DNA of 25,865 nucleotides from a virus (taxonomy: Duplodnaviria; Heunggongvirae; Uroviricota; Caudoviricetes), in the IMG/VR virus record IMGVR_UViG_2582580933_000011, positions 1 through 25,865 of that record, one strand, 5' to 3'. The notes beneath the pieces are model-generated. The model had not been told where the DNA came from and ran no database searches. It saw nothing but the letters and a program-made list of their open reading frames with translations. Shown piece by piece: positions 314 to 11,980 of the stretch. How positions within the stretch are numbered: the stretch's first letter is position 1; the number at the start of each line of letters is the position of its first letter. The translations under genes and the position numbers were made by a program.

Positions 314-559
314 TCAATGTCTGGCTTTTTTTCTATAGAAATCACCTGGAAGGGTGAATATCCACATCAGAAGAAATGTTGCAGCAAACATGATCCCTAA
401 TGGCCAGATTGCGCCAAAGAAAATCCATACTAAGATCTCCTCTGCTCGTTCTTTGCGGTCGATATCGACAAGCATTTTTCGGCTGATTATGTATACACAG
501 AAGCCAATACAAACATATCCTGCAAAAGCGAACGCTAACTGTAAAAAATCAGATTGCAT
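314..559 (-). CDS. small membrane protein (two predicted TM helices), unknown function
   Basis: ORF 314..640 (-). An internal ATG at 557-559 has a GAGG upstream and would give an 81-aa product with hydrophobic helices (LAFAFAGYVCIGFCVYII, ILVWIFFGAIWPLGIMFAATFLLMWIF). The longer start at 640 overlaps the repL-like stop. Confidence 0.4.
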   Translation of the reverse strand: MQSDFLQLAFAFAGYVCIGFCVYIISRKMLVDIDRKERAEEILVWIFFGAIWPLGIMFAATFLLMWIFTLPGDFYRKKARH

Positions 560-609
560 CTCCGACCTCAAACTGAAAACACCAGGTGACTCCAGATTAG
601 AGCAATCTA

Positions 610-1455
610 TCACCCTCTGAATCCTGCCGGTATACCCCATTGTTCGTTATCTTTATTTTTGGCTAAAACCGCATTAAGAGCTTCGTTTACCGTCATGCAA
701 TGCGGCAGATTATCGAAGTTTGATACCCCGCCAATATCAGGAGAACGCTTGTTCTTCAGGTAAGCATATTTCCGCGCTGCCGCCTCTACTTTCTGCTTGA
801 ACTCATGTTTTTGAGCGCGTTTTTTGGATAACCGCAGATTGTCAGCCTTTGCTTTTGCCTCAGCGATCCATGAAGTCAATTTTTTGAGTCTGGTCGTTCC
901 GGCACCGCCGGAAACTGATCTTTTTGTTTTTTTAACTTGTGACTTCTTATTCTTTATTGCCACGTCATCCTGACAGGGGGAGGGGGTATCATTTTGACAT
1001 GGGGGTGTGGATAAAAAATTAAATAAAGCCAATGTCTTAGCGAGAACAGCTTTAACCTTGGTTGCCGCTGAAGAGATCTTTAATTTGCTTTCAATCAGCG
1101 CATTTTTGGCTTGTTGTGCGAAGGCCAAAAAGGATGGTGTAAACCGGTACAGGTTAGCGCGACGTTCACGGTGATCGCCGATAACAATCTCTACAGACAG
1201 AATTCCTTTGTTTACAGCTTCACGGAATGTACGAACGACGGTTGATTGGCTATAACCAGTTTCTGCCGCGATCAGGCGGTGAGGCTTGTGAATGAAGTAT
1301 TCACTGGTTGTTGCCGCGAGATTTGCACATTGCGACAGGATATGCCCGGCGCTACGGGATAGACCGGAGTGTGTTACAAAGCAGGCCAATTCATAGCCAG
1401 AAAAAGTAAAATCGCTCATCGTTATACAGCTCAGGAAAGTGACTTTAGCCAGCAT
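610..1455 (-). CDS. repL: RepL-like lytic-replicon initiator (P1 L-replicon type)
   Basis: 281-aa ORF immediately downstream of kilA on the same strand. N-terminal HTH-like region, very basic Lys-rich C-terminal half. Length and position match the kilA-repL unit of P1 as recalled. The start codon is ambiguous (no strong SD; an alternative ATG lies 12 codons in). Confidence 0.6.
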   Translation of the reverse strand: MLAKVTFLSCITMSDFTFSGYELACFVTHSGLSRSAGHILSQCANLAATTSEYFIHKPHRLIAAETGYSQSTVVRTFREAVNKGILSVEIVIGDHRERRANLYRFTPSFLAFAQQAKNALIESKLKISSAATKVKAVLAKTLALFNFLSTPPCQNDTPSPCQDDVAIKNKKSQVKKTKRSVSGGAGTTRLKKLTSWIAEAKAKADNLRLSKKRAQKHEFKQKVEAAARKYAYLKNKRSPDIGGVSNFDNLPHCMTVNEALNAVLAKNKDNEQWGIPAGFRG

Positions 1456-2449: not shown

Positions 2450-3493
2450 TTAACCTATTGCTACTGGTTTTAACAAACCAGCATCAAGTAGCTTGCGAGT
2501 TAACCACTGCTGGCCTTTACCCGTTAATTGGGGCGTCAGCCGTATCTGGTAGCCATTTTCATCATCCAGCACCACTTCTTTCACCGTGAAATACCCGGCG
2601 TTAATGTACTGCTGGCGCGGTACGTTTTTGCGCGCACCAAAAGCCATGAGAATGCCGTTCTGGCGCAACCATGAGAAAAGGGCGTTTTGCTTAAGTCCAA
2701 CGACCTTTGCAAAGTTCCCGATCAGGATTCCATTGGCCACTGATACCCGGTCGGCAAAATCGACTTTAGGGGCTGCGGCCACCAGCTGTTGTTCCAGCTG
2801 CATTTTCTGTTCTGCCAACTCGGCAGCCAGGCGTAGAGCTTCTGGTAATGTTTGGGGGATCGATGGGGCAGGGGAGTTTGCCTGCTGCAATTCTTCCAGT
2901 TTGTCGATCAGCGAACGGCGGACGGCTTTTGATTCGCGTGCGGCGACTCGCAGGGCTTGTTTGTAGGTCATGGTTATGACAACCATAGGCGTACCGCCAC
3001 CTGGCGGCACGGTTGCACTTTTTGTGTAACCGTCCTCACCTTCTAATTCGTCGAGTATTTTTTCGATGAATTTGTTGTTCCGAACCTCTGGTTCCCCACA
3101 TAACTTACGCGCTTCATTGACCATCTTTAACAGTGTCAGGCTGTCGATTGTGTCTCCGGTGTTGGGGATGATATTCACGGCTGGTGCTGGCGTAGCTGAC
3201 GTAACAGGTGCTGTTTTTTCAACATTCAAATTATTACCGGTCATTCTATGTGCCTCCTTTCTCATTTCTGCTGCCACTGTTGCGTAACGTAGACGTCCTT
3301 GTTCAATCAAATAATCCCTGATCTCGGCTATCAGTAGCTTGTTGATCACAGCCTTATCTGTTCGGGTATAAAAACGTCTGGTTATCATGAAATAGTTGGC
3401 AATTGCGCCGGGGATCTCCCGTGTCGGCATACAGGCAGTGTGCAGGGCGATCGCTTCGGCTATGTCATTACGGGTGACGAGAGGTTTTTTCAT
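2450..3493 (-). CDS. ant1: antirepressor Ant1 (347 aa) with an in-frame internal start giving Ant2 (264 aa); C-terminal KilAC domain
   Basis: KilAC-type C-terminus (LPEALRLAAELAEQK ... GNFAKVVGL ... TGKGQQWLTRKLLDAG). Internal ATG at 3242-3244 is preceded by AGGAGG (plus 3253-3258) at 8-nt spacing. The ATG at 3491-3493 overlaps the stop of the upstream icd-like ORF (ATGA). Matches the P1 immI ant1/ant2 arrangement. Confidence 0.85.
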   Translation of the reverse strand: MKKPLVTRNDIAEAIALHTACMPTREIPGAIANYFMITRRFYTRTDKAVINKLLIAEIRDYLIEQGRLRYATVAAEMRKEAHRMTGNNLNVEKTAPVTSATPAPAVNIIPNTGDTIDSLTLLKMVNEARKLCGEPEVRNNKFIEKILDELEGEDGYTKSATVPPGGGTPMVVITMTYKQALRVAARESKAVRRSLIDKLEELQQANSPAPSIPQTLPEALRLAAELAEQKMQLEQQLVAAAPKVDFADRVSVANGILIGNFAKVVGLKQNALFSWLRQNGILMAFGARKNVPRQQYINAGYFTVKEVVLDDENGYQIRLTPQLTGKGQQWLTRKLLDAGLLKPVAIG

Positions 3494-3711
3494 AAACCCC
3501 CCTGAACGTCGGCAGAGAAGGGGAGGCTCCAGTAACTAAGTGAATTGCGCGAGTTAGTTGAAAAACGGGCAGTAAAAATGCAGGGGCCGTCAGGCAATTG
3601 AGAGCGTGCTTCGTCTTCTGTTGCTGCGATAACGAAGTGATAGTGGTGTTTTTTACAGGAATAGAAACGCCAGATGAATTCTTGGCGTGCGCAAGGATTG
3701 GCATTAACCAT
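3490..3711 (-). CDS. icd: Icd-like small protein (73 aa), translationally coupled to ant
   Basis: 73-codon ORF whose stop overlaps the ant1 start. GAGG 9 nt upstream of the ATG at 3709-3711, and that SD lies inside a sequence complementary to an upstream element (see c4-like feature). Identification is by position and length relative to P1 immI; the sequence itself was not independently recognised. Confidence 0.5.
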   Translation of the reverse strand: MVNANPCARQEFIWRFYSCKKHHYHFVIAATEDEARSQLPDGPCIFTARFSTNSRNSLSYWSLPFSADVQGGL

Positions 3712-3764
3712 AGTTACGGCCTCACAATCAGGTTTAACAACCTGCTACCCGCTGTCAAACAGGT

Positions 3765-3860
3765 GGCAGGACGTGACAGGGTTGACAGACTGGCGATTGT
3801 GAAACCAGCAGGCCGAAGCCTCCCCATCACGCCCCACCATAATTTGGGCGTAACGCGGTT
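3765..3860 (-). ncRNA. candidate c4-like antisense repressor RNA (approximate bounds)
   Basis: The central element 3781-3802 (plus gttgacagactggcgattgtga) is the inverted complement of motifs at 3722-3760 (CACAATCA ... CTGTCAAAC, overlapping the icd SD) and 3907-3929 (CACAATCA ... CTGTCAAAC). This is the a1/b1 - a'/b' - a2/b2 layout described for P1/P7 c4. Ends of the RNA cannot be fixed from sequence alone. Confidence 0.4.
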
Positions 3861-4025
3861 TAACGGACACAAAAATACCGCAATATCGGAAATCTGCGGT
3901 TGTCCGCACAATCATTCAGGCTGTCAAACCTGGTCGCAGAATTTGCTACGACGGCGGAACTATAAGCCTGAACGATTAAAAGGTCAATATGATGCGAAAA
4001 GATAGCATTCGTGACTTAAAAATAC

Positions 4026-4042
4026 AAATTTATTAGAGCATT
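4026..4042 (-). promoter_or_regulatory. C1-repressor operator-like 17-mer (Op51-like) upstream of the immI transcription unit
   Basis: Minus strand reads AATGCTCTAATAAATTT, 16/17 to the consensus ATTGCTCTAATAAATTT. The flanking sequence is also shared with the kilA site (plus 2343-2369 versus 4012-4040: ACTTA.AAAA..AAATTTATTAGAGCA). Confidence 0.6.
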
Positions 4043-4138
4043 GTTTGTTTAATAAATGCACAATTGGATCTAATAACCTCTTTTTTTTAAAGGCGAAAAT
4101 ATGTACCCTAAATGAGTTATAAGGCAGGTGAGGTTATA

Positions 4139-4630
4139 ATGAGAAAACTATTACTACCGTTATTATTTATGGCTGGGACTGTTAATGCAGCATCAAGCGT
4201 AAAGGAGATTTGTACCGATTATACGAAATACCTTGGGCACGTTTACGGATTTGCTGTCAGTGAAGACGAATCCATGCGCAAGAAGTTACTGTCAGATATG
4301 AAGCGCCTTAAACTTTCTGAAGCGATGGTGCAGCAGGAACTGTATAAAGTCTCAACCAACGCAAATGCTAAATACCAATATTCTCGCCTATTAAACCCCG
4401 ATGCAAATGAGATCAATCGAAGCACTTTCGATTATATGGTAAAGGCATGCGAAACCGCTCCTGATTTTGCTATCCCTAGCTGGGGTGTGCTGGTGGCGAG
4501 CAATGCCGTTAATAAAGAAGATGTTGGAAGAAATGGCATTGACTCAATCAGAAATGCCCCAGGAATGCGCCATCAAAACGTGCAGGGTACGCTTGAAGAA
4601 CGAGCCAGGGGGCCGGGTGTAGCTCCATAA
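4139..4630 (+). CDS. secreted (signal-peptide) protein with a C-terminal motif shared with the Sit protein
   Basis: ORF track 4112..4630. The likely start at ATG 4139 has GGTGAGG upstream and gives MRKLLLPLLFMAGTVNA|ASS, a signal peptide with an AxA-type cleavage site and no lipobox Cys. C-terminus NGIDSIRNAPGMRHQNVQGTLEERARGPG matches Sit segments. The body of the gene is AT-rich, the 3' end GC-richer. Confidence 0.6.
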   Translation: MRKLLLPLLFMAGTVNAASSVKEICTDYTKYLGHVYGFAVSEDESMRKKLLSDMKRLKLSEAMVQQELYKVSTNANAKYQYSRLLNPDANEINRSTFDYMVKACETAPDFAIPSWGVLVASNAVNKEDVGRNGIDSIRNAPGMRHQNVQGTLEERARGPGVAP

Positions 4631-4718
4631 TTTAATGAATAATATTAAATTCTCTGGGCATAGTGGATCTAACAATATGGACTATGCCTATAATATCTAA
4701 AACAAAAAGGATAAAAAT

Positions 4719-5225
4719 ATGAAATTATATAAGTCATTGTATAGCTTTTTATTAATGTCCTCTTTTCTGCCATTATCAGCAATGGCAGGTTCTACCGTTT
4801 GGACGGTAGGAGGTGAGCAAGGGTGGAGAGAAATCTCTGCAACCAATGACGATGGTTATACAATTAACTTTTCTTGTGATGCTGGAGCAAGGGAAGGTTC
4901 AGAAGATCATATCGCTGGAAGAAATTTGTATGTAAGCGGAGGAAAAGAGAATGCCGATTTTTCTACACGCGACACAATATCACGTAAAGCAGATGTAATT
5001 ACTTTAATTGTTGGCCCGGATAGTTTTAATATTGGCACGCAAAACACTGCTCCTAATCGTAGGGAATGGTATTCATTTTGGAAGGCAGTGTCATCTACAA
5101 ATGAAAAAAACATAGATGTATATATCGGTTCGAGTCGAATCACATCATTCACTCTGGATGGTATTTCCAGTATTTATACAGAAGCTAAAAATGACGGGTG
5201 TTTAAAACAAGATGACGGTGAATAA
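4719..5225 (+). CDS. secreted/periplasmic protein, unknown function
   Basis: 168 aa. N-terminal signal peptide MKLYKSLYSFLLMSSFLPLSAMA|GST, two Cys in the mature part. AT-rich. Its end overlaps the start of the next gene by 14 nt. Confidence 0.6.
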   Translation: MKLYKSLYSFLLMSSFLPLSAMAGSTVWTVGGEQGWREISATNDDGYTINFSCDAGAREGSEDHIAGRNLYVSGGKENADFSTRDTISRKADVITLIVGPDSFNIGTQNTAPNRREWYSFWKAVSSTNEKNIDVYIGSSRITSFTLDGISSIYTEAKNDGCLKQDDGE

Positions 5226-6285
5226 AGTGAAGGATATTAAACACATTTCGCTTAACTCTAATAATAAAGCTGAAGGCACTGTCTTTTATGATTATTTAAA
5301 TGAAATTAAAGGAGTGAGGCATAAAAAGATAAGTGGTTTATTAAATTCAGAATATATTTACAAGAGTTTAGTTAAACAGTTTGGAACAGTTAAAAAACAA
5401 GAATTAATTAATGATTGTTTTCGAAAAGAACTTGAGTCTTTACCAAAAGTTACGAGAATTGCACACCAGTTTCGTGAACAAATGGTATTTTTACAGAAAC
5501 AGTATCAGGCGGCTTTTCCCAGTGATGCAAATGAGCATATTCAAATAATTAAAAATCAAGCTGAAATGGCTATGCCGTTACGAAAACACTCAGAAGCCAT
5601 TAATAAGATAGCTGGCTTAAATAATATGGAGGAGGTATTTAAAGAATTACACTCTAATATAAATTACAAAATTAAGATAAGCAAAGATATTAAAGAAATA
5701 ATAAAGCAGTATAATAAAACAAGAAGTGTATTATTAGAGCAAGTAGTAGAGCTTGGGCTTGTTACTATCGCGCAGGCTTATGCTAATGATTCTATAAAAT
5801 CAGCGCATACCGAAAGTGAGCATCAAAACAAAGGATTTAATAAATCTAGTTCGACGTTTTTTGATTCATTTAAGGCGCTTCCTTCTCCTATTCAGATCTT
5901 CCTTCTGTGGATTTTTTATCAAGTGGTGCTTGGCGCTATAACTGATTATGCAAAAGAAAAGACATTATCGCAAATTTACAAGATGGAATCATATCTTCTA
6001 TCTCTAAATGAGGATAAGCCAATATCTAAGCAAAAGCTAACACAAGAAAATAAAGATATTCAGTGGGAGGATCTTAATAATTTTAGAGCTATAACAGGTG
6101 ATAACGTAAGGTTGCATGTCGGCCCTTCTTTAAATAGTGAAGTGATTGAATGCATTGGCAAAAACACAATTGTTGCTATTTTAGATAAGAAAGATCGTCA
6201 ATGGCTTTACGTGCAGGTTAAATCAGGGGATGAGTTTATTACTGGTTGGATTACACGAACATACACAAAGCCTCTTAAGGCTTGA
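5212..6285 (+). CDS. Lys/Asn-rich protein with one predicted TM segment and a C-terminal SH3b-like domain
   Basis: 357 aa. Hydrophobic segment PIQIFLLWIFYQVVLGAIT. C-terminal approx 60 aa (VRLHVGPSLNSEVIECIGKNTIVAILDKKDRQWLYVQVKSGDEFITGWITRTY) has the bacterial SH3 pattern. Very AT-rich, strong compositional contrast with neighbours. Confidence 0.55.
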   Translation: MTVNKVKDIKHISLNSNNKAEGTVFYDYLNEIKGVRHKKISGLLNSEYIYKSLVKQFGTVKKQELINDCFRKELESLPKVTRIAHQFREQMVFLQKQYQAAFPSDANEHIQIIKNQAEMAMPLRKHSEAINKIAGLNNMEEVFKELHSNINYKIKISKDIKEIIKQYNKTRSVLLEQVVELGLVTIAQAYANDSIKSAHTESEHQNKGFNKSSSTFFDSFKALPSPIQIFLLWIFYQVVLGAITDYAKEKTLSQIYKMESYLLSLNEDKPISKQKLTQENKDIQWEDLNNFRAITGDNVRLHVGPSLNSEVIECIGKNTIVAILDKKDRQWLYVQVKSGDEFITGWITRTYTKPLKA

Positions 6286-6415
6286 ATTTTATCTCCGCAT
6301 CTTCGGATTGGGTGTTGATGACGATGTGCTACTTGAAGCACTTGAGTTGTTTTAACGTAGTATCTGAAATGTGTAGACTGACCGGTAACAAATGACAACT
6401 CGTAGAATCGGTTAA

Positions 6416-7628
<1,213 letters not shown>

Positions 7629-7642
7629 ATTAAGGAGCAAGG

Positions 7643-8524
7643 ATGCTTTTACCTCTTTTCCCGCTACCATCGCGGCCAACTGAATTGATCCAGTTCCGTC
7701 AGCCAAATATTGCTGATGCGATGCGTTTCAACTCGATAACACCGGAGGAACAAGAACAACAGACAACGGCGTATTTAAAAGCCTTGCTGGCTGAACCCGC
7801 GAAACATGATCCCCTGACATGGACGGCGCAGGACCGGATTACCGCGTTATGGTGGATATTTACCGGCTCCCGTGAAACACCGGTCGAGACATTCACCTAC
7901 ACCTGTAAACATTGCGGTAAAGAGCATTATTACGATTGCGATATGAATGCTCTGGCTGAAGATATCCAGGTCCTGGAAGTGGAACCGTTCATTGACGATA
8001 TTGAGGTGTCTGTAGAGGGAGTGCCTTATCAATGGCGTATCGTGCCGCTTGATGGTTGGGCAATGGAAATGCTGGAGATGCGCCGTGCAGCATTGCCACC
8101 TGAAGACGACGCGGAATTCAAAGAAGCGATCGTTGATTTGCGTTTTTGGGAATTCGCTTATCAGTGTGAGCTTTATAACGATGTTAGTGGTACTCGTGAA
8201 GATCAGGCTGAGCGTCGTTATGAAACGATTAAACGGATGGCCATTGATACTGAATTTATGAAGCTGGCGGCACACATCCGACTGGCTCATGAAAAGCTCG
8301 AACATGGTTTACCGTGCTACATCGATAAAGGTGAAATGCGTCTTCGTCTCCCGCCGCACAAATGCCCAAACCAGGATAAAAAGGAGTCCACAGAGGGTGC
8401 GTTTACCCGTCTGTGGGTGCCCTTTCGGGCTACCGACTTCATTCCACAGGTGGGGATTGAAAAGCTATCAGACCTTAGTATCCAACCTGGTTTTGTATGG
8501 GGGTATACCGATTCAGGACGCTGA
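7643..8524 (+). CDS. tail protein with Cys-x2-Cys zinc-ribbon-like motif; candidate tail assembly chaperone (gene immediately upstream of tape measure)
   Basis: 293 aa with CKHCGKEHYYDCD. RBS AAGGAG upstream of the ATG at 7643. A +1-frame ORF (8289..8594) overlaps its 3' end and ends 11 nt before the tape-measure start. Confidence 0.5.
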   Translation: MLLPLFPLPSRPTELIQFRQPNIADAMRFNSITPEEQEQQTTAYLKALLAEPAKHDPLTWTAQDRITALWWIFTGSRETPVETFTYTCKHCGKEHYYDCDMNALAEDIQVLEVEPFIDDIEVSVEGVPYQWRIVPLDGWAMEMLEMRRAALPPEDDAEFKEAIVDLRFWEFAYQCELYNDVSGTREDQAERRYETIKRMAIDTEFMKLAAHIRLAHEKLEHGLPCYIDKGEMRLRLPPHKCPNQDKKESTEGAFTRLWVPFRATDFIPQVGIEKLSDLSIQPGFVWGYTDSGR

Positions 8525-8605: not shown

Positions 8606-11600
8606 ATGGAAAGAAAAAACGCCAACATTGACGATGTTATAAGGACAGTTGAAACCGCCAGCGCAAAAGAGCTGGAAGAGCTTGCAGGTATCCGGGAAGC
8701 TGTTGAAGATTTGAAAGGGGGACGCGTTGCAACTGTTGATCCTGTCTCTCACAGTGTGTCGGCATTAAATCGCACAATCGAAAATTCCAGGCCAGACTTT
8801 GTGGCCAATGCGCCATCAGTGGCCCCTATTGTTGAGGCAATGAAACGGCTTAATTTAGGGGACGTTTCTCGTGTAGTTCAGGAGGATGTTGCTCTACAGG
8901 AACCGCAGGCCAAATCAACTACGCGAAAGGGTAAAAAACGACGCAAGAAGGCTATAACAGAAGATGTAAAGGCGCAACGGACCGAAGCAGCCGAACACGC
9001 TCGCGAAATGTTCGGTCAAAAAGGCGGTGCGCAAAAAAGCCAAAACCAACGCGATGCGCGTGGTCGTTTTATTGGAAAGCCAGGGAGTAAGGCCGCAGCG
9101 GAAGATGCCCGTGCTGAACGTGCTGAAAAGGCCAGGCGCAAAGAGGATGATGAGCGTCTAAATGCTGAATCAGGTTTATTAAAAAAACTGTCAAAAGTAG
9201 CTGAAGGCATAGGTAACCCTTCAGAGACTCGCGCCGTCGATGCGTTAGGTTATGCCGTTGCTGGTCCATTGTGGGCCGCAGGGAAGGAGCTTGGCGGGAT
9301 ATCAAAAGAAGTTGGTGGATCGCTTAATGGTGCCAGAAAGTCTATTGCCGATGTGATTCGTGGCAATGACGATAACAGCCGTAGAAAAGGTTTTTTTAGG
9401 CGTAAATCGCAAAATAGTGCCGATGTCGTTCAGGTTAACACCCAAAAACGGACGGTTCAGGAACTTCAGGATCAGACCAGCGAAATTAAAGAGGGCAATG
9501 ACAAGATTCTCAGCGCCCTTGATCAGATAGCCAAAAACACCGGGAAAAAGAAGGGCGGCTTGCTGTCCAAATTATTTAGCCTGTTAGGGAAGGGGGCCGG
9601 TGGCGTCGCGTCGTTGTTTATGGGGCGTGGCATGCTGAAAAAAGCTGGAGCACTCGCTTTTGGCGCTCTGGGGGCAAAGAAACTTGTAGGAATGCTACGC
9701 GGTGGTGGCAAGAAGACTCTCGCCCATGAAGGCGGAGATTTGGCTGCCCGGGCAGCAGGTAAACTTGGATTAAAGGCAGTTGGTAAAGGGGCGTTACGCG
9801 CAATTCCCCTAGTCGGCACAGTGGCTGGAGGTATTTATGATGCGGTAACCGGTTGGAATGATACAGAAGCGCAACGTCGAGCGTTTGGGCTTAAATCAGG
9901 ACAAGATCCATCATTCCAGCAAAAAGCCGCTTATACGTTAGCCAATGTTCTTGATTTGGGGGGACTGGTATCTGGTATTAGCAGTGCTATTGGTGATGTT
10001 CTCAAATCACTTGGATTTGAGGATATCGGCAATATGTTGCAATCATTTTCGACGGAAAGTATTGCCCAGGCCATTGATAGTGGGATTACCAACTTAGAAA
10101 CATATATTTCTAACCTTGGCGACACCATTTCTACCAAGTTCGATGATTACACAGCAAAGATTGGTGATGCTGTTTCAGCATGGTTTAGCGATACATCTAA
10201 TAAGCTGCTTGAAAAGCTGGATGCCATCAAAGACTTCTTTACTGTCGATAACCTGAAACAGGTTTTCAGTGATGCAATTGATAGTGCAATTGATTTCATT
10301 AAGAACCCAGGGAAACACATTAAAGAGGCAGCTAGTAATATTTGGGATGGGGTTAAAAATTTACCAGGTAAAGCATTAGATGCAGCGGTTGATGCCGTTA
10401 AAAATACCCCTGCGGCAATGATTGTATCAAAAACACCCAATCCGATCGGCGAGGCTAATGCGAAAGAAATCACTCCAGAGTTAAAAGCTCCGGTTAATAG
10501 CCAGCAGGGGACATCTGATTCTAAAGCTGAATCCGATGCCAAACAGACTAATATTGCTGCCCGCGTGATAAATGCGGCCCTGGATATGGCGAAAGATAGC
10601 AATAAAACAGTTAAAGAAACTGCTAATCAGATTATCAATGCAAATGCCGTAGAAACAGGAAATAAAGCAGCACAAACAATTGATGCTGCCTTGGGCCAGT
10701 CTGCTACAGGTAAGGAGGAAGCATTAAGTGCATATGAGATAGATAAACGTCGATTTAACAATGGCAAGGATGTTTCTTTGCCAAAATTAAATGCTGCCGG
10801 ATACCAATGGATTTCTGACAATGCCGATTATTTTGATGAGCTTGAACGTAAGTATGGGCTTGAAAAAGGGATTCTGTCAGCAGTTGCATCCGCAGAGTCT
10901 AGTGCAGGCCAGAGAACTGGAAATCCAGTAGACAAAAACGGGAACAAACTTTCATCTGCCCTTGGGGCTTTTCAGATCACTAAAGGTACAAGGGAGGATC
11001 TTGGACTCAGCGATGCTGATGCCATGGATACACGAAAAGCAGCTGATGGTGCCGCCAGATACCTAAGTATGCTGATGAACCGTTATAACGGTGATCAGGG
11101 TCGTGCAATAGCTGCCTATCATGCTGGTATGGGGCATGTTGATAAGGGGAGAGTAGTCGCCGGTACCGGCGAATATGTTACTCGTGTCAGAGGTTATCAG
11201 CAGATGCTCAATAATGGTGCCGTTTATGGCTCTAAGGTAGATCATAGCGCACCAGCAATTCACGAAAAGATACCTGATAACGCTGTTATCGATCAGTCTA
11301 CTGGCCTGGCGTTTACCCCTGGTGATAGCCCGTTTGAGAAAGGCGGTCTGGTAGACAAAATTGGCAATGCTGTTGGTGTTAACGATCTGGTCAACAAATT
11401 CATGAATGGCCGGGGTATGCGTCGGGAAGTCGTTCAGGGAACGCTCGAAGAACGTGCACGAGGGAAGGGGACCGCAACAGCAGCTGGCAATGTGTATGTT
11501 GATACTCCGATGCCAGTTGAAGAGGCGCGTCCGGTGGCCAGCAATTCAAGTTACTTTGACCAACTCGGCGCACAAATGGGGATTGATGGACTATTCGATA

Positions 11601-11980
11601 AACTCCGCAACTCGCCGGGGATGCGGAAAAATAATGCGCCTGAACCAGCCTCCACGTCCCAGGTGACGACTGCCGCCAACGATTTGCAGCAACCAACCGG
11701 TCGTATGCAGATAGACGGACAGGTTATTAGTGACCTTGGCGGCTCCGGTGCCAAGCCGACAATGCAGTTGGCTGATAATACCGTTTCACTTGATGGTGAA
11801 ACGAAGCGGCTGTTTGCGCAGATGACCTCATTGCTTGCCAGGATTGAAGAGCACACTAAAGACTCGGCGAAAGGCCAGGGAACTGTCGTAAAGGTCAGCA
11901 CGCCTCAACCGGGCGTTATGCGCACGGTGCCACTGTCAATTGATGATCCGTTGATGAATGACTACGCGAGAGTTGATTGA
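8606..11980 (+). CDS. sit: Sit-like tape-measure / structural injection protein with internal soluble lytic transglycosylase (SLT) domain
   Basis: 1124 aa. Gly/Ala/Lys-rich N-terminal half. SLT signature at approx nt 10860-11140 (LSAVASAESSAGQ ... GAFQITKG ... AAYHAGMGHV). Position upstream of the baseplate and fibre genes. Size close to P1 Sit as recalled. Confidence 0.85.
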   Translation: MERKNANIDDVIRTVETASAKELEELAGIREAVEDLKGGRVATVDPVSHSVSALNRTIENSRPDFVANAPSVAPIVEAMKRLNLGDVSRVVQEDVALQEPQAKSTTRKGKKRRKKAITEDVKAQRTEAAEHAREMFGQKGGAQKSQNQRDARGRFIGKPGSKAAAEDARAERAEKARRKEDDERLNAESGLLKKLSKVAEGIGNPSETRAVDALGYAVAGPLWAAGKELGGISKEVGGSLNGARKSIADVIRGNDDNSRRKGFFRRKSQNSADVVQVNTQKRTVQELQDQTSEIKEGNDKILSALDQIAKNTGKKKGGLLSKLFSLLGKGAGGVASLFMGRGMLKKAGALAFGALGAKKLVGMLRGGGKKTLAHEGGDLAARAAGKLGLKAVGKGALRAIPLVGTVAGGIYDAVTGWNDTEAQRRAFGLKSGQDPSFQQKAAYTLANVLDLGGLVSGISSAIGDVLKSLGFEDIGNMLQSFSTESIAQAIDSGITNLETYISNLGDTISTKFDDYTAKIGDAVSAWFSDTSNKLLEKLDAIKDFFTVDNLKQVFSDAIDSAIDFIKNPGKHIKEAASNIWDGVKNLPGKALDAAVDAVKNTPAAMIVSKTPNPIGEANAKEITPELKAPVNSQQGTSDSKAESDAKQTNIAARVINAALDMAKDSNKTVKETANQIINANAVETGNKAAQTIDAALGQSATGKEEALSAYEIDKRRFNNGKDVSLPKLNAAGYQWISDNADYFDELERKYGLEKGILSAVASAESSAGQRTGNPVDKNGNKLSSALGAFQITKGTREDLGLSDADAMDTRKAADGAARYLSMLMNRYNGDQGRAIAAYHAGMGHVDKGRVVAGTGEYVTRVRGYQQMLNNGAVYGSKVDHSAPAIHEKIPDNAVIDQSTGLAFTPGDSPFEKGGLVDKIGNAVGVNDLVNKFMNGRGMRREVVQGTLEERARGKGTATAAGNVYVDTPMPVEEARPVASNSSYFDQLGAQMGIDGLFDKLRNSPGMRKNNAPEPASTSQVTTAANDLQQPTGRMQIDGQVISDLGGSGAKPTMQLADNTVSLDGETKRLFAQMTSLLARIEEHTKDSAKGQGTVVKVSTPQPGVMRTVPLSIDDPLMNDYARVD

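What the first reader, a model, noticed from the sequence alone, without database searches (positions are those of the whole stretch)
4112..6285. AT-rich three-gene cassette (two secreted proteins + SH3b membrane protein) between the immunity region and the tail operon
Three co-oriented genes (4139..4630, 4719..5225, 5212..6285) have much lower GC than the flanking immunity and tail genes, indicating horizontally acquired cargo. Two products carry classical signal peptides; the third has a TM segment and a C-terminal SH3b-like, peptidoglycan-binding-type domain. The position corresponds to where P1 carries its superimmunity (sim) locus next to immI (as recalled), but the sizes here do not obviously match. 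Periplasmic proteins at this location are good candidates for a superinfection-exclusion or injection-blocking system, possibly acting against the transglycosylase-bearing Sit protein, conceptually like T4 Sp/Imm.
Basis: partly seen in the sequence, partly recalled or inferred. Interest (0 to 1): 0.75.

Follow-up and report, generated by a model that had tools for sequence, protein, structure and literature searches.

The report
Uncharacterised envelope-protein cassette at P1 sim locus
In this P1-like phage-plasmid, the slot where phage P1 keeps its sim genes (which block entry of a second phage) holds three different, uncharacterised cell-envelope proteins, one of which copies a short segment of the phage's own tail tape-measure protein.

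Summary
The three genes are real and sit exactly where P1 carries simABC, between the C1 operator of the c4-icd-ant operon and the late promoter of the pmgC-tub-pmgB-sit operon.

- **ORF1 (4139-4630):** a signal-peptide "SimA-domain" protein. It is a truncated form (163 aa) of a 215-aa protein. P1's 52-aa SimA is a shorter remnant of the same gene. Its last 41 residues are 51% identical to a tandemly repeated segment downstream of the transglycosylase region of Sit (placed there by analogy with P1 Sit).
- **ORF2 (4719-5225):** a signal-peptide protein of the YfjT family. Its confident model has no informative structural match.
- **ORF3 (5212/5227-6285):** a fast-evolving helical N-terminal half, one membrane helix and a conserved C-terminal SH3b domain.

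Only ORF2 and ORF3 are clearly AT-rich. Nothing is homologous to SimB or SimC, to known lysozyme inhibitors or to PADLOC defence models. All three genes are under purifying selection.

The cassette is one of four recurrent cargo types at this known variable region. It occurs in about 6.5% of complete E. coli genomes that carry a P1-like element.

A role in blocking phage entry is plausible but untested. It rests on position, cellular compartment and the Sit-like motif.

The parts
4026..4042 (-). C1 repressor operator Oc4 (Op51). It marks the left edge of the variable slot, about 97 nt upstream of the ORF1 start.
   Evidence: It matches ATTGCTCTAATAAATTT at 16 of 17 positions. It corresponds to the annotated Oc4 of P1. 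Homology with P7 ends at window position 4040.
4139..4630 (+). ORF1, a SimA-domain periplasmic protein of 163 aa. An upstream ATG at 4112 would give 172 aa. The signal peptide is aa 1-17. The protein is truncated relative to the 215-aa form.
   Evidence: phrog_3933, E 1.9e-113, covering profile positions 1-162 of 213. It is 96% identical to Ro157c2YLVW gp35 over 161 aa and 92% identical to P1 SimA over 51 aa. The family has only 12 representatives among 1.84 billion proteins. dN/dS is 0.05-0.24.
4502..4624 (+). Sit-like motif of ORF1 (aa 122-162): NAVNKEDVGRNGIDSIRNAPGMRHQNVQGTLEERARGPGVA.
   Evidence: It is 51% identical over 41 aa to Sit aa 921-957, E 3e-7. The profile hit to the Sit family phrog_2533 covers positions 927-963 of 1130, E 1.6e-5. 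The motif is kept in family members that are only 41% and 60% identical overall.
4719..5225 (+). ORF2, a YfjT-family (PF27224) periplasmic protein of 168 aa. The signal peptide is aa 1-23. Cys53 and Cys161 are invariant.
5212..6285 (+). ORF3, a single-pass membrane protein of 357 aa, or 352 aa from the GTG at 5227. It has a variable helical N-terminal half, a membrane helix at aa 225-245 (nt ~5884-5946) and an SH3b domain at aa 297-351 (nt 6100-6264).
   Evidence: phrog_7086, E 3e-225. Pfam SH3_3 at 27.7 bits. There are 42 homologue clusters, all from enterobacteria and most on contigs of about 90-100 kb. The C-terminal third is nearly invariant and the N-terminal part is variable. dN/dS is 0.53-0.89 for the N-terminal part and 0.13-0.33 for the C-terminal part.
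6268..6283 (+). Weak terminator-like stem-loop overlapping the ORF3 stop codon.
   Evidence: Consensus scan only.
6379..6387 (.). Right recombination boundary of the variable slot. Homology with P1, P7 and Ro157c2YLVW resumes here, upstream of the LPsit late promoter and pmgC.
   Evidence: blastn breakpoints and the P1 annotation.
11366..11635 (+). Two tandem copies of the motif inside sit, at Sit aa 921-957 and 977-1010. By analogy with P1 Sit they lie downstream of the SLT transglycosylase domain.
   Evidence: Both copies are present and highly conserved in every E. coli P1-like Sit examined, whatever the sim-locus type. They are absent from Serratia, Pantoea and Erwinia Sit homologues. The SLT domain lies at about aa 750-900 in P1 Sit (PMC9024508).

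Best explanation
What is shown:
- This is a minority allele of the sim hot-spot of P1-like phage-plasmids. It is a three-gene module encoding envelope-located proteins and it replaces simB-simC.
- All three genes are maintained by purifying selection.

Most likely function (inferred, not shown):
- The module acts at the periplasm or inner membrane against incoming P1-like phages. It would be a superinfection-exclusion or DNA-entry block that stands in for Sim.

Proposed division of labour (inferred):
- ORF1 is exported and displays a copy of the conserved repeated segment from the C-terminal part of Sit, the tape-measure protein. It could act as a decoy, either occupying whatever envelope partner that segment needs or binding to Sit itself.
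- ORF2 is the constant periplasmic partner. It accompanies a SimA-domain protein or the SH3 protein in nearly all loci that have either. Its biochemical role is unknown.
- ORF3 is anchored in the inner membrane, with its SH3b domain presumed to bind peptidoglycan in the periplasm. It may hold the block at the place where the tail tip crosses the wall.

Likely expression (inferred):
- A C1 operator lies directly upstream. The module may therefore be repressed in a stable lysogen and switched on early after infection or induction, as T4 imm and sp are.
For: Position:
- The module lies between Oc4 and LPsit, exactly where P1 has simABC.
- P1 Sim is reported to stop superinfecting phages from injecting DNA (PMC8546580, citing Devlin 1982 and Kliem & Dreiseikelmann 1989).

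Cargo types at this slot:
- I surveyed 65 versions of the slot. Every recurrent type encodes exported or membrane proteins.
- SimB+SimC types: 15-16 loci, 13 of them as SimA52+SimB+SimC.
- P7 lipoprotein + DUF5384: 19 loci. The lipoprotein gives a weak TraT hit below the cut-off.
- SimA-domain + YfjT: 20 loci.
- SimA-domain + YfjT + SH3: 10 loci, counting this window.

Sit-like motif:
- It appears in ORF1 by pairwise comparison (E 3e-7) and against the Sit-family profile (E 1.6e-5).
- It is retained in the 41%- and 60%-identical family members.
- It is retained in the truncated form here, which ends 5 residues after the motif.
- Both Sit copies are present and highly conserved across E. coli P1-like Sit proteins.

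Selection:
- dN/dS is 0.05-0.24 for ORF1 and 0.07-0.19 for ORF2.
- It is 0.13-0.33 for the ORF3 membrane-helix and SH3 part.
- It is 0.53-0.89 for the ORF3 N-terminal half, which is faster evolution, as expected for conflict or for low constraint.

Regulation:
- In Cronobacter phage JK004 the SimA-domain + YfjT pair sits upstream of pmgC, away from the c4/icd/ant immunity genes.
- A C1-operator-like site still precedes it: 14 of 17 positions, with 0.01 such sites expected by chance in that locus.
Against: - No phenotype is known for any of the three proteins.
- There is no homology to SimB or SimC, to PADLOC defence models, or to any solved structure by sequence.
- The ORF2 fold matches nothing informative.
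- ORF1 is truncated here.
- The JK004 and P0070-type relatives lack the VQGTLEERARG half of the motif, so the motif is not universal in the family.
- In JK004 the pair sits inside the tail gene cluster at the local GC content. That would also fit a function in the phage's own infection cycle.
- The ORF3 model is poor (pLDDT 41). Its membrane topology is inferred only from the lack of a signal peptide, and the charges flanking the membrane helix are not decisive.
- At 32-38% GC the genes may be silenced by H-NS in E. coli (general knowledge, not tested).
Confidence: 0.4

Rival explanations
1. The genes serve the phage's own infection cycle rather than excluding competitors. As C1-repressed early genes next to the tail operon, they could protect the newly infected or induced cell from wall damage by Sit transglycosylase, from lysis from without, or from wasteful re-adsorption of progeny. 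They could also remodel peptidoglycan locally.
For: - A C1 operator lies directly upstream, both here and in JK004.
- In JK004 the SimA-domain + YfjT pair is embedded in the tail gene cluster at native GC.
- The Sit-like motif links ORF1 to the phage's own tape-measure protein.
Against: - The slot is dispensable and interchangeable. About 19 of 65 loci carry unrelated P7-type genes and about 16 carry simBC.
- simABC are non-essential for P1 in a CRISPRi screen (PMC10695390).
- This reading overlaps mechanistically with exclusion and cannot be separated from it by sequence alone.
Confidence: 0.2
2. The genes are lysogenic-conversion cargo that changes the host envelope for the bacterium's benefit, for example adhesion, serum or stress resistance, or immunity to bacteriocins or T6SS effectors. 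They would have no role in phage-phage conflict.
For: - All products go to the envelope.
- YfjT and YkfB relatives sit in cryptic prophages of E. coli K-12, going by the family name alone.
- The P7 allele of the slot encodes a lipoprotein weakly similar to TraT.
Against: - The fold matches are marginal or carry automatic names.
- The ORF1 and ORF3 families are found almost only on P1-like elements. That argues for a phage-specific function.
- The Sit-like motif has no explanation under this reading.
Confidence: 0.15
3. It is an abortive-infection or defence module against unrelated phages. ORF3 would sense wall damage through its periplasmic SH3b domain and signal or kill through its cytoplasmic N-terminal half.
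For: - ORF3 has the build of a transmembrane sensor.
- Its N-terminal half evolves fast.
- ORF3 can stand alone at another locus in a Citrobacter P1-like element.
Against: - There is no PADLOC hit.
- No enzymatic or effector domain is recognisable in the N-terminal half.
- The structural model is poor.
Confidence: 0.15
4. The genes are decaying hitchhikers with no current function: a truncated ORF1 plus AT-rich, silenced passengers.
For: ORF1 is truncated at a recombination junction. P1's own SimA is a 52-aa remnant evolving at dN/dS of about 0.3-1.1.
Against: - All three reading frames are intact.
- They are conserved across alleles under purifying selection, including the truncated ORF1 (dN/dS 0.05-0.13).
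- The cassette recurs in dozens of independent plasmids from Escherichia coli, E. fergusonii, E. albertii and Salmonella.
Confidence: 0.05

Closest known systems
P1 superimmunity locus simABC (SimC is the Sim exclusion protein)
   Same: - It occupies the same slot, between Oc4 and LPsit, in the same orientation.
- Its products are exported through signal peptides.
- ORF1 shares its start and first 51 residues with SimA (92% identity).
   Different: - SimB and SimC are absent and have no homologue here.
- P1 has no YfjT-family or SH3b protein at this slot.
- Sim's phenotype is established. This cassette's is not.
SimA-domain + YfjT pair of phages vB_EcoM-Ro157c2YLVW (gp35/gp34) and Cronobacter JK004 (g14/g13)
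   Same: - ORF1 is 96% identical to gp35 over 161 aa and 80% identical to JK004 g14 over 146 aa.
- ORF2 belongs to the same family as gp34 and g13 (29-35% identity).
   Different: - Here ORF1 is cut at residue 163.
- ORF2 is a divergent 168-aa allele.
- A third gene, the SH3b membrane protein, has been added. It has no match in 50,697 deposited phage genomes.
- These relatives are uncharacterised as well.
Exclusion proteins that target the tape-measure protein: Ltp lipoprotein of Streptococcus phage TP-J34 and gp15 of HK97 (recalled from the literature, not tested here)
   Same: They are prophage-encoded envelope proteins that block DNA entry by acting on the incoming tape-measure protein or its membrane partner. 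This is the closest mechanistic precedent for the proposed decoy role.
   Different: - No similarity to any solved chain was detected: by sequence for all three proteins and by fold for ORF2 only.
- A decoy built from a tape-measure segment has not been described for them.
T4 Imm and Sp (spackle)
   Same: They are membrane or periplasmic proteins made early in infection. They block DNA entry and the tail lysozyme of superinfecting phage. Both the compartment and the presumed timing are analogous.
   Different: No homology was detected. Sp inhibits the gp5 lysozyme directly, and nothing here resembles any lysozyme or transglycosylase inhibitor.
Single-pass inner-membrane proteins with a C-terminal wall-binding domain (E. 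coli SPOR proteins DamX, DedD and FtsN; SH3b wall-binding modules of phage endolysins)
   Same: ORF3 has the same overall build: a cytoplasmic N-terminal part, one membrane helix and a C-terminal peptidoglycan-binding module. Its SH3b domain also hits an endolysin amidase family, phrog_1794, E 4e-5.
   Different: The wall-binding domain is SH3b, not SPOR. There is no catalytic domain. The N-terminal half is unrelated to anything known.

Membership tests
P1 Sim (SimB/SimC) superinfection-exclusion proteins | Sequence homology to SimC, the active Sim protein, or to SimB | tested here: not met
   blastp found no hit at E 1e-2. hhalign of the ORF2 and ORF3 family profiles against SimC and SimB gave probabilities below 1%.
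P1 Sim (SimB/SimC) superinfection-exclusion proteins | Location between the c4 operator and the pmgC late promoter, divergent from c4-icd-ant | tested here: met
   Synteny and breakpoints against P1, P7 and Ro157c2YLVW. Operator at 4026-4042.
P1 Sim (SimB/SimC) superinfection-exclusion proteins | Blocks infection after adsorption when expressed | not testable with these tools
   This needs plating and DNA-entry assays.
SimA-domain proteins (phrog_3933) | Full-length match to the family profile | tested here: inconclusive
   The match is very strong (E 1.9e-113) but covers only profile positions 1-162 of 213. The C-terminal quarter was lost at the junction at window position 4618.
YfjT family (Pfam PF27224) | Match to the family model | tested here: met
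   The match is indirect. The 95%-identical P0043 and all relatives that are 28-49% identical carry a precomputed PF27224 hit. The local Pfam copy appears to lack the model, because it returned no PF27224 hit even for a homologue that carries the precomputed hit. phrog_3429 matched at E 1.6e-71.
Bacterial SH3 domain, SH3_3 (Pfam PF08239) | Score at or above the gathering cut-off | tested here: met
   27.7 bits against a cut-off of 27 for ORF3. The Citrobacter homologue scores 34.9 bits. The model shows a beta-strand domain at aa 291-354 with the best confidence in the protein.
Periplasmic lysozyme or transglycosylase inhibitors (Ivy, MliC/PliC, PliG; T4 Sp) | Sequence or fold similarity to a solved inhibitor | tested here: not met
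Known anti-phage defence systems (PADLOC-DB v2) | Match to any defence-protein model | tested here: not met
   No family matched at E up to 1 for any of the three proteins.

The most novel reading that the evidence does not exclude
ORF1 would be a periplasmic molecular mimic of the C-terminal repeat of the tape-measure protein Sit. Together with the YfjT-family protein and the wall-anchored SH3b membrane protein, it would form a decoy-type injection block. The block would trap or out-compete the incoming tape-measure protein at the peptidoglycan and inner-membrane interface. That would be a class of superinfection exclusion built from a piece of the target phage's own tail, switched on by loss of C1 repression.
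Probability: 0.15. Interest if true: 0.7.

Novelty: new variant of a known kind. Interest (0 to 1): 0.4.

Why it matters
P1-like phage-plasmids are present in about 9% of complete E. coli genomes (473 of 5,426). They carry resistance genes and are used as genetic tools.

How Sim works is, to my knowledge, still unknown at the molecular level. The host or phage partner of the Sit C-terminal region during DNA entry is also unknown.

Four interchangeable sets of envelope proteins occupy one slot. One family carries a conserved copy of a Sit segment. Together these give a concrete, testable handle on how P1 DNA crosses the envelope and how related phages exclude each other.

The work also corrects an annotation: P1 'SimA' is a remnant of a longer gene.

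If the cassette turns out to have no anti-phage role, it is still a recurrent and selected set of prophage envelope proteins of unknown function.

Tried and rejected
- **Homology to SimB or SimC:** none found.
- **Known defence systems:** no PADLOC hit.
- **Solved structures, by sequence:** single sequences and family profiles gave only noise, mostly coiled-coil-type hits to the ORF3 N-terminal half at E of 0.015 or higher.
- **ORF2 fold search:**
  - BFVD gave one uncharacterised phage protein labelled 'putative adhesin'.
  - The lysozyme-inhibitor idea for ORF2 is therefore rejected.
  - The afdb50 library was not available.
- **ORF3 structure:** the model was too poor to search (pLDDT 41).
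- **ORF1 as a phosphatase:** it gives a near-threshold Pfam hit to PTPlike_phytase (25.2 bits against a cut-off of 27). I reject this as functional because there is no CX5R catalytic loop; the only candidate is CETAPDF.
- **Mobile-element ends:** no direct or inverted repeats flank the cassette.
- **Non-coding RNA:** nothing inside the cassette. Only C4 and its targets to the left were found.
- **Sit motif versus cargo type:** the Sit motif is essentially the same in all sim-locus types.
- **C1 operator next to the stand-alone Citrobacter SH3 gene:** none found.
- **Literature:** no functional study of YfjT, YkfB, SimA-domain proteins or this SH3 protein was found. The P1 genome paper (PMC523184) is not held.
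Full report
**1. What is at these coordinates**

The window is a P1-like (Punavirus) phage-plasmid.

- On the minus strand lie repL-like (610-1455), kilA (1485-2285), ant1 (2450-3493), icd (3490-3711) and the C4 antisense RNA. Rfam places C4 at 3759-3844 (68 bits) and its a1b1 targets at 3913-3965.
- On the plus strand lie the three ORFs of the finding, then pmgC (6440-7015), tub (7005-7628), pmgB (7643-8524) and sit (8606-11980).
- A C1 operator matching the consensus at 16 of 17 positions lies at 4026-4042. It corresponds to P1's Oc4.

**2. Position relative to P1**

- blastn against P1, P7 and phage vB_EcoM-Ro157c2YLVW shows conserved flanks and a replaced middle.
- Homology on the left ends at window 4040 for P7, 4278 for P1 and 4618 for Ro157c2YLVW. 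On the right it resumes at 6379-6387 in all three.
- In P1 this interval holds simA, simB and simC, transcribed away from c4 and towards pmgC.
- The sim region is already listed as one of eight low-GC variable regions of P1-like phage-plasmids (PMC9603915).
- simABC are non-essential for P1 (PMC10695390).
- Sim is cited as preventing DNA injection by superinfecting phage (PMC8546580).

**3. GC content**

- ORF2 is 0.381 and ORF3 is 0.325. Flanking genes are 0.455-0.50.
- ORF1 is 0.447, essentially the window mean of 0.457. The claim of foreign, AT-rich DNA therefore holds for two of the three genes.

**4. ORF1**

- The ATG at 4139 follows a GGTGAGG ribosome-binding site.
- It opens a typical signal peptide, MRKLLLPLLFMAGTVNA|ASS.
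- The protein matches phrog_3933 (E 1.9e-113), but only profile positions 1-162 of 213.
- It is 96% identical to the first 161 residues of the 215-aa Ro157c2YLVW gp35.
- P1 SimA (52 aa) is 92% identical to its start. The P1-type 52-aa remnants evolve at dN/dS of about 0.3-1.1, whereas the long forms evolve at 0.05-0.24. P1 SimA is therefore a remnant of this gene.
- The family is tiny: 12 representatives at E of 0.001 or better among 1.84 billion cluster representatives.

**5. The Sit-like motif**

- ORF1 residues 122-162 align with Sit residues 921-957 at 51% identity, E 3e-7. They align more weakly with a second Sit copy at 977-1010.
- The same ORF1 segment hits the Sit-family profile phrog_2533 at positions 927-963 of 1130, E 1.6e-5.
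- At the DNA level only about 20 nt are similar, so this is not a recent copy.
- The motif is NAPGMRHQxVxGxxxERARGxG. It is kept in SimA-domain proteins that are only 60% and 41% identical overall (P0071 and P0075). It is also kept in a divergent L032 form.
- It is only half present in the JK004 and P0070 types.
- Both Sit copies are present and highly conserved in every E. coli P1-like Sit examined, whatever the sim-locus type. They are absent from Serratia, Pantoea and Erwinia Sit homologues.
- By analogy with P1 Sit, whose SLT transglycosylase domain lies at about residues 750-900 (PMC9024508), the motif lies just downstream of the SLT domain.

**6. ORF2**

- It has a signal peptide, MKLYKSLYSFLLMSSFLPLSAMA|GS, and matches phrog_3429 (E 1.6e-71).
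- Its 95%-identical relative and all relatives at 28-49% identity carry Pfam PF27224, YfjT. NCBI sometimes names it 'YfjT/YkfB family phage-associated protein'.
- Two cysteines and several tryptophans are invariant.
- The AF2 model is good (pLDDT 81.7, pTM 0.76), with a disordered N-terminal 23 residues.
- In BFVD the one clear match is an uncharacterised Serratia phage protein (E 4e-9).
- No lysozyme-inhibitor fold appears among the matches.

**7. ORF3**

- It matches phrog_7086 (E 3e-225).
- It has one hydrophobic helix at about aa 225-245 and SH3_3 at aa 297-351 (27.7 bits against a cut-off of 27).
- The start is probably the GTG at 5227, which follows a GGTGA site.
- The family has 42 clusters, all from Escherichia, Citrobacter, Salmonella or Pseudocitrobacter and most on contigs of about 90-100 kb.
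- No homologue exists in 50,697 deposited phage genomes.
- The membrane helix and C-terminal 110 residues are nearly invariant. The N-terminal half varies in length and sequence, and in Citrobacter and Salmonella forms it contains short QKQAGF-type repeats.
- dN/dS is 0.53-0.89 for the N-terminal part and 0.13-0.33 for the C-terminal part.
- The AF2 model is poor except for the SH3 domain (pLDDT 41).
- Topology with the N-terminus inside and SH3b in the periplasm is inferred from the lack of a signal peptide. It was not tested.

**8. Survey of the slot**

I used 64 loci from IMG/VR, GTDB genomes and phage records, plus the window.

| Cargo type | Loci |
|---|---|
| SimA-domain (215 aa) + YfjT (158 aa) | 20 |
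| P7-type lipoprotein + DUF5384 | 19 |
| SimB+SimC types | 15-16 (13 as SimA52+SimB+SimC) |
| Truncated SimA-domain + YfjT (168 aa) + SH3 protein | 10, counting the window |

- Two loci of the last type have an IS-type TnpB gene inserted upstream.
- A further allele has a 116-aa protein with several hydrophobic segments, then YfjT, then SH3.
- In a Citrobacter element the SH3 gene stands alone at a different locus.
- YfjT is therefore the common partner and the SH3 gene is an add-on.
- Among complete E. coli genomes, 473 of 5,426 carry the P1-like pmgC-pmgB segment. Of these, 31 carry at least 80% of the ORF2-ORF3 DNA.
- In PLSDB, 34 plasmids from E. coli, E. fergusonii, E. albertii and Salmonella carry it.

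**9. A distant relative**

- In Cronobacter phage JK004 the SimA-domain + YfjT pair lies directly upstream of pmgC-tub-pmgB-sit. It is not next to the immunity genes, and its GC matches its neighbours.
- It is preceded by a terminator and a C1-operator-like site. That site matches at 14 of 17 positions, with 0.01 expected by chance.
- This suggests that the operator controls the pair. It also suggests that the pair is old in this phage lineage and was not recently imported.

**10. Interpretation**

- Shown: the identity of the locus, the protein families, their envelope destination (from sequence features), their selection regime and the Sit-like motif.
- Inferred: the function.
- The best-supported reading is an envelope-level block to entry of related phages, standing in for Sim. 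ORF1 would be a possible decoy of the Sit C-terminal repeat and ORF3 a wall-anchored membrane component.
- I put this at 0.4.
- The rivals are listed with their tests: a role in the phage's own infection cycle, host-benefit cargo, an abortive-infection sensor, and junk.
- Nothing supports direct inhibition of the transglycosylase.

**11. Novelty**

- The genes are in public databases as hypothetical, 'simA domain' or 'SH3 domain-containing' proteins.
- I found no functional study of them.
- It is a non-homologous variant at a known exclusion locus, in a known variable region.
- New here are the Sit-like motif, the finding that P1 SimA is a remnant, and the catalogue of the slot.

Noticed in passing
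L001 1912-2070 (P1 simA), compared with window 4112-4630: P1's annotated SimA (52 aa) is the N-terminal remnant of a 215-aa signal-peptide protein. The remnant forms evolve at dN/dS of about 0.3-1.1, against 0.05-0.24 for the long forms. The label 'superimmunity accessory function' is probably not meaningful.
   Followed up: yes
window 11366-11635 (sit, aa 921-1010): Sit carries two tandem copies of a motif of about 35 residues (…N[GS]xGMR…), downstream of the transglycosylase domain by analogy with P1 Sit. Both copies are present and highly conserved in all E. coli P1-like Sit proteins examined. They are absent from Serratia, Pantoea and Erwinia homologues. Their function is unknown.
   Followed up: partly
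L096 2786-2802 (Cronobacter phage JK004): A C1-operator-like site (14 of 17 positions) and a terminator precede the SimA-domain + YfjT pair, even though the c4-icd-ant genes are not adjacent. This suggests that the pair is a C1-controlled unit.
   Followed up: partly
L003 2125-2646 (P7 upf50.5): RefSeq names this signal-peptide lipoprotein 'DNA methyltransferase', which looks like a mis-annotation. It gives a weak hit to the surface-exclusion lipoprotein TraT, below the cut-off (23 bits against 31), and has a glycine-zipper segment.
   Followed up: no
window 3871-3952, minus strand: A sub-threshold Rfam hit to the Salmonella sRNA IsrK (43 bits against a gathering score of 50) overlaps the c4 a1b1 target region. 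It probably reflects relatedness of IsrK to P1-type c4 leader sequences.
   Followed up: no
L030 and L081, between Oc4 and the SimA-domain gene: An IS-type gene encoding a 402-aa TnpB-like protein is inserted between the operator and ORF1 in two loci that carry the same three-gene cassette. The insertion would separate the genes from the operator and promoter.
   Followed up: no
L009 and L012 (GTDB contigs labelled Bacillota bacterium and Candidatus Paenibacillus intestinavium): Short contigs from metagenome-assembled genomes assigned to Firmicutes encode PmgC 98-99% identical to this E. coli phage. They are very likely mis-binned P1-like DNA.
   Followed up: no
A3 alignment columns ~100-300 (ORF3 homologues P0021-P0039): Citrobacter and Salmonella homologues of ORF3 carry several tandem repeats of about 13 residues (for example LEGIHKQASFGGV) in the presumed cytoplasmic half. 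The window's protein has lost most of them.
   Followed up: no
window 314-640, minus strand: A 108-aa ORF with two hydrophobic segments lies downstream of the repL-like gene. It was not examined.
   Followed up: no
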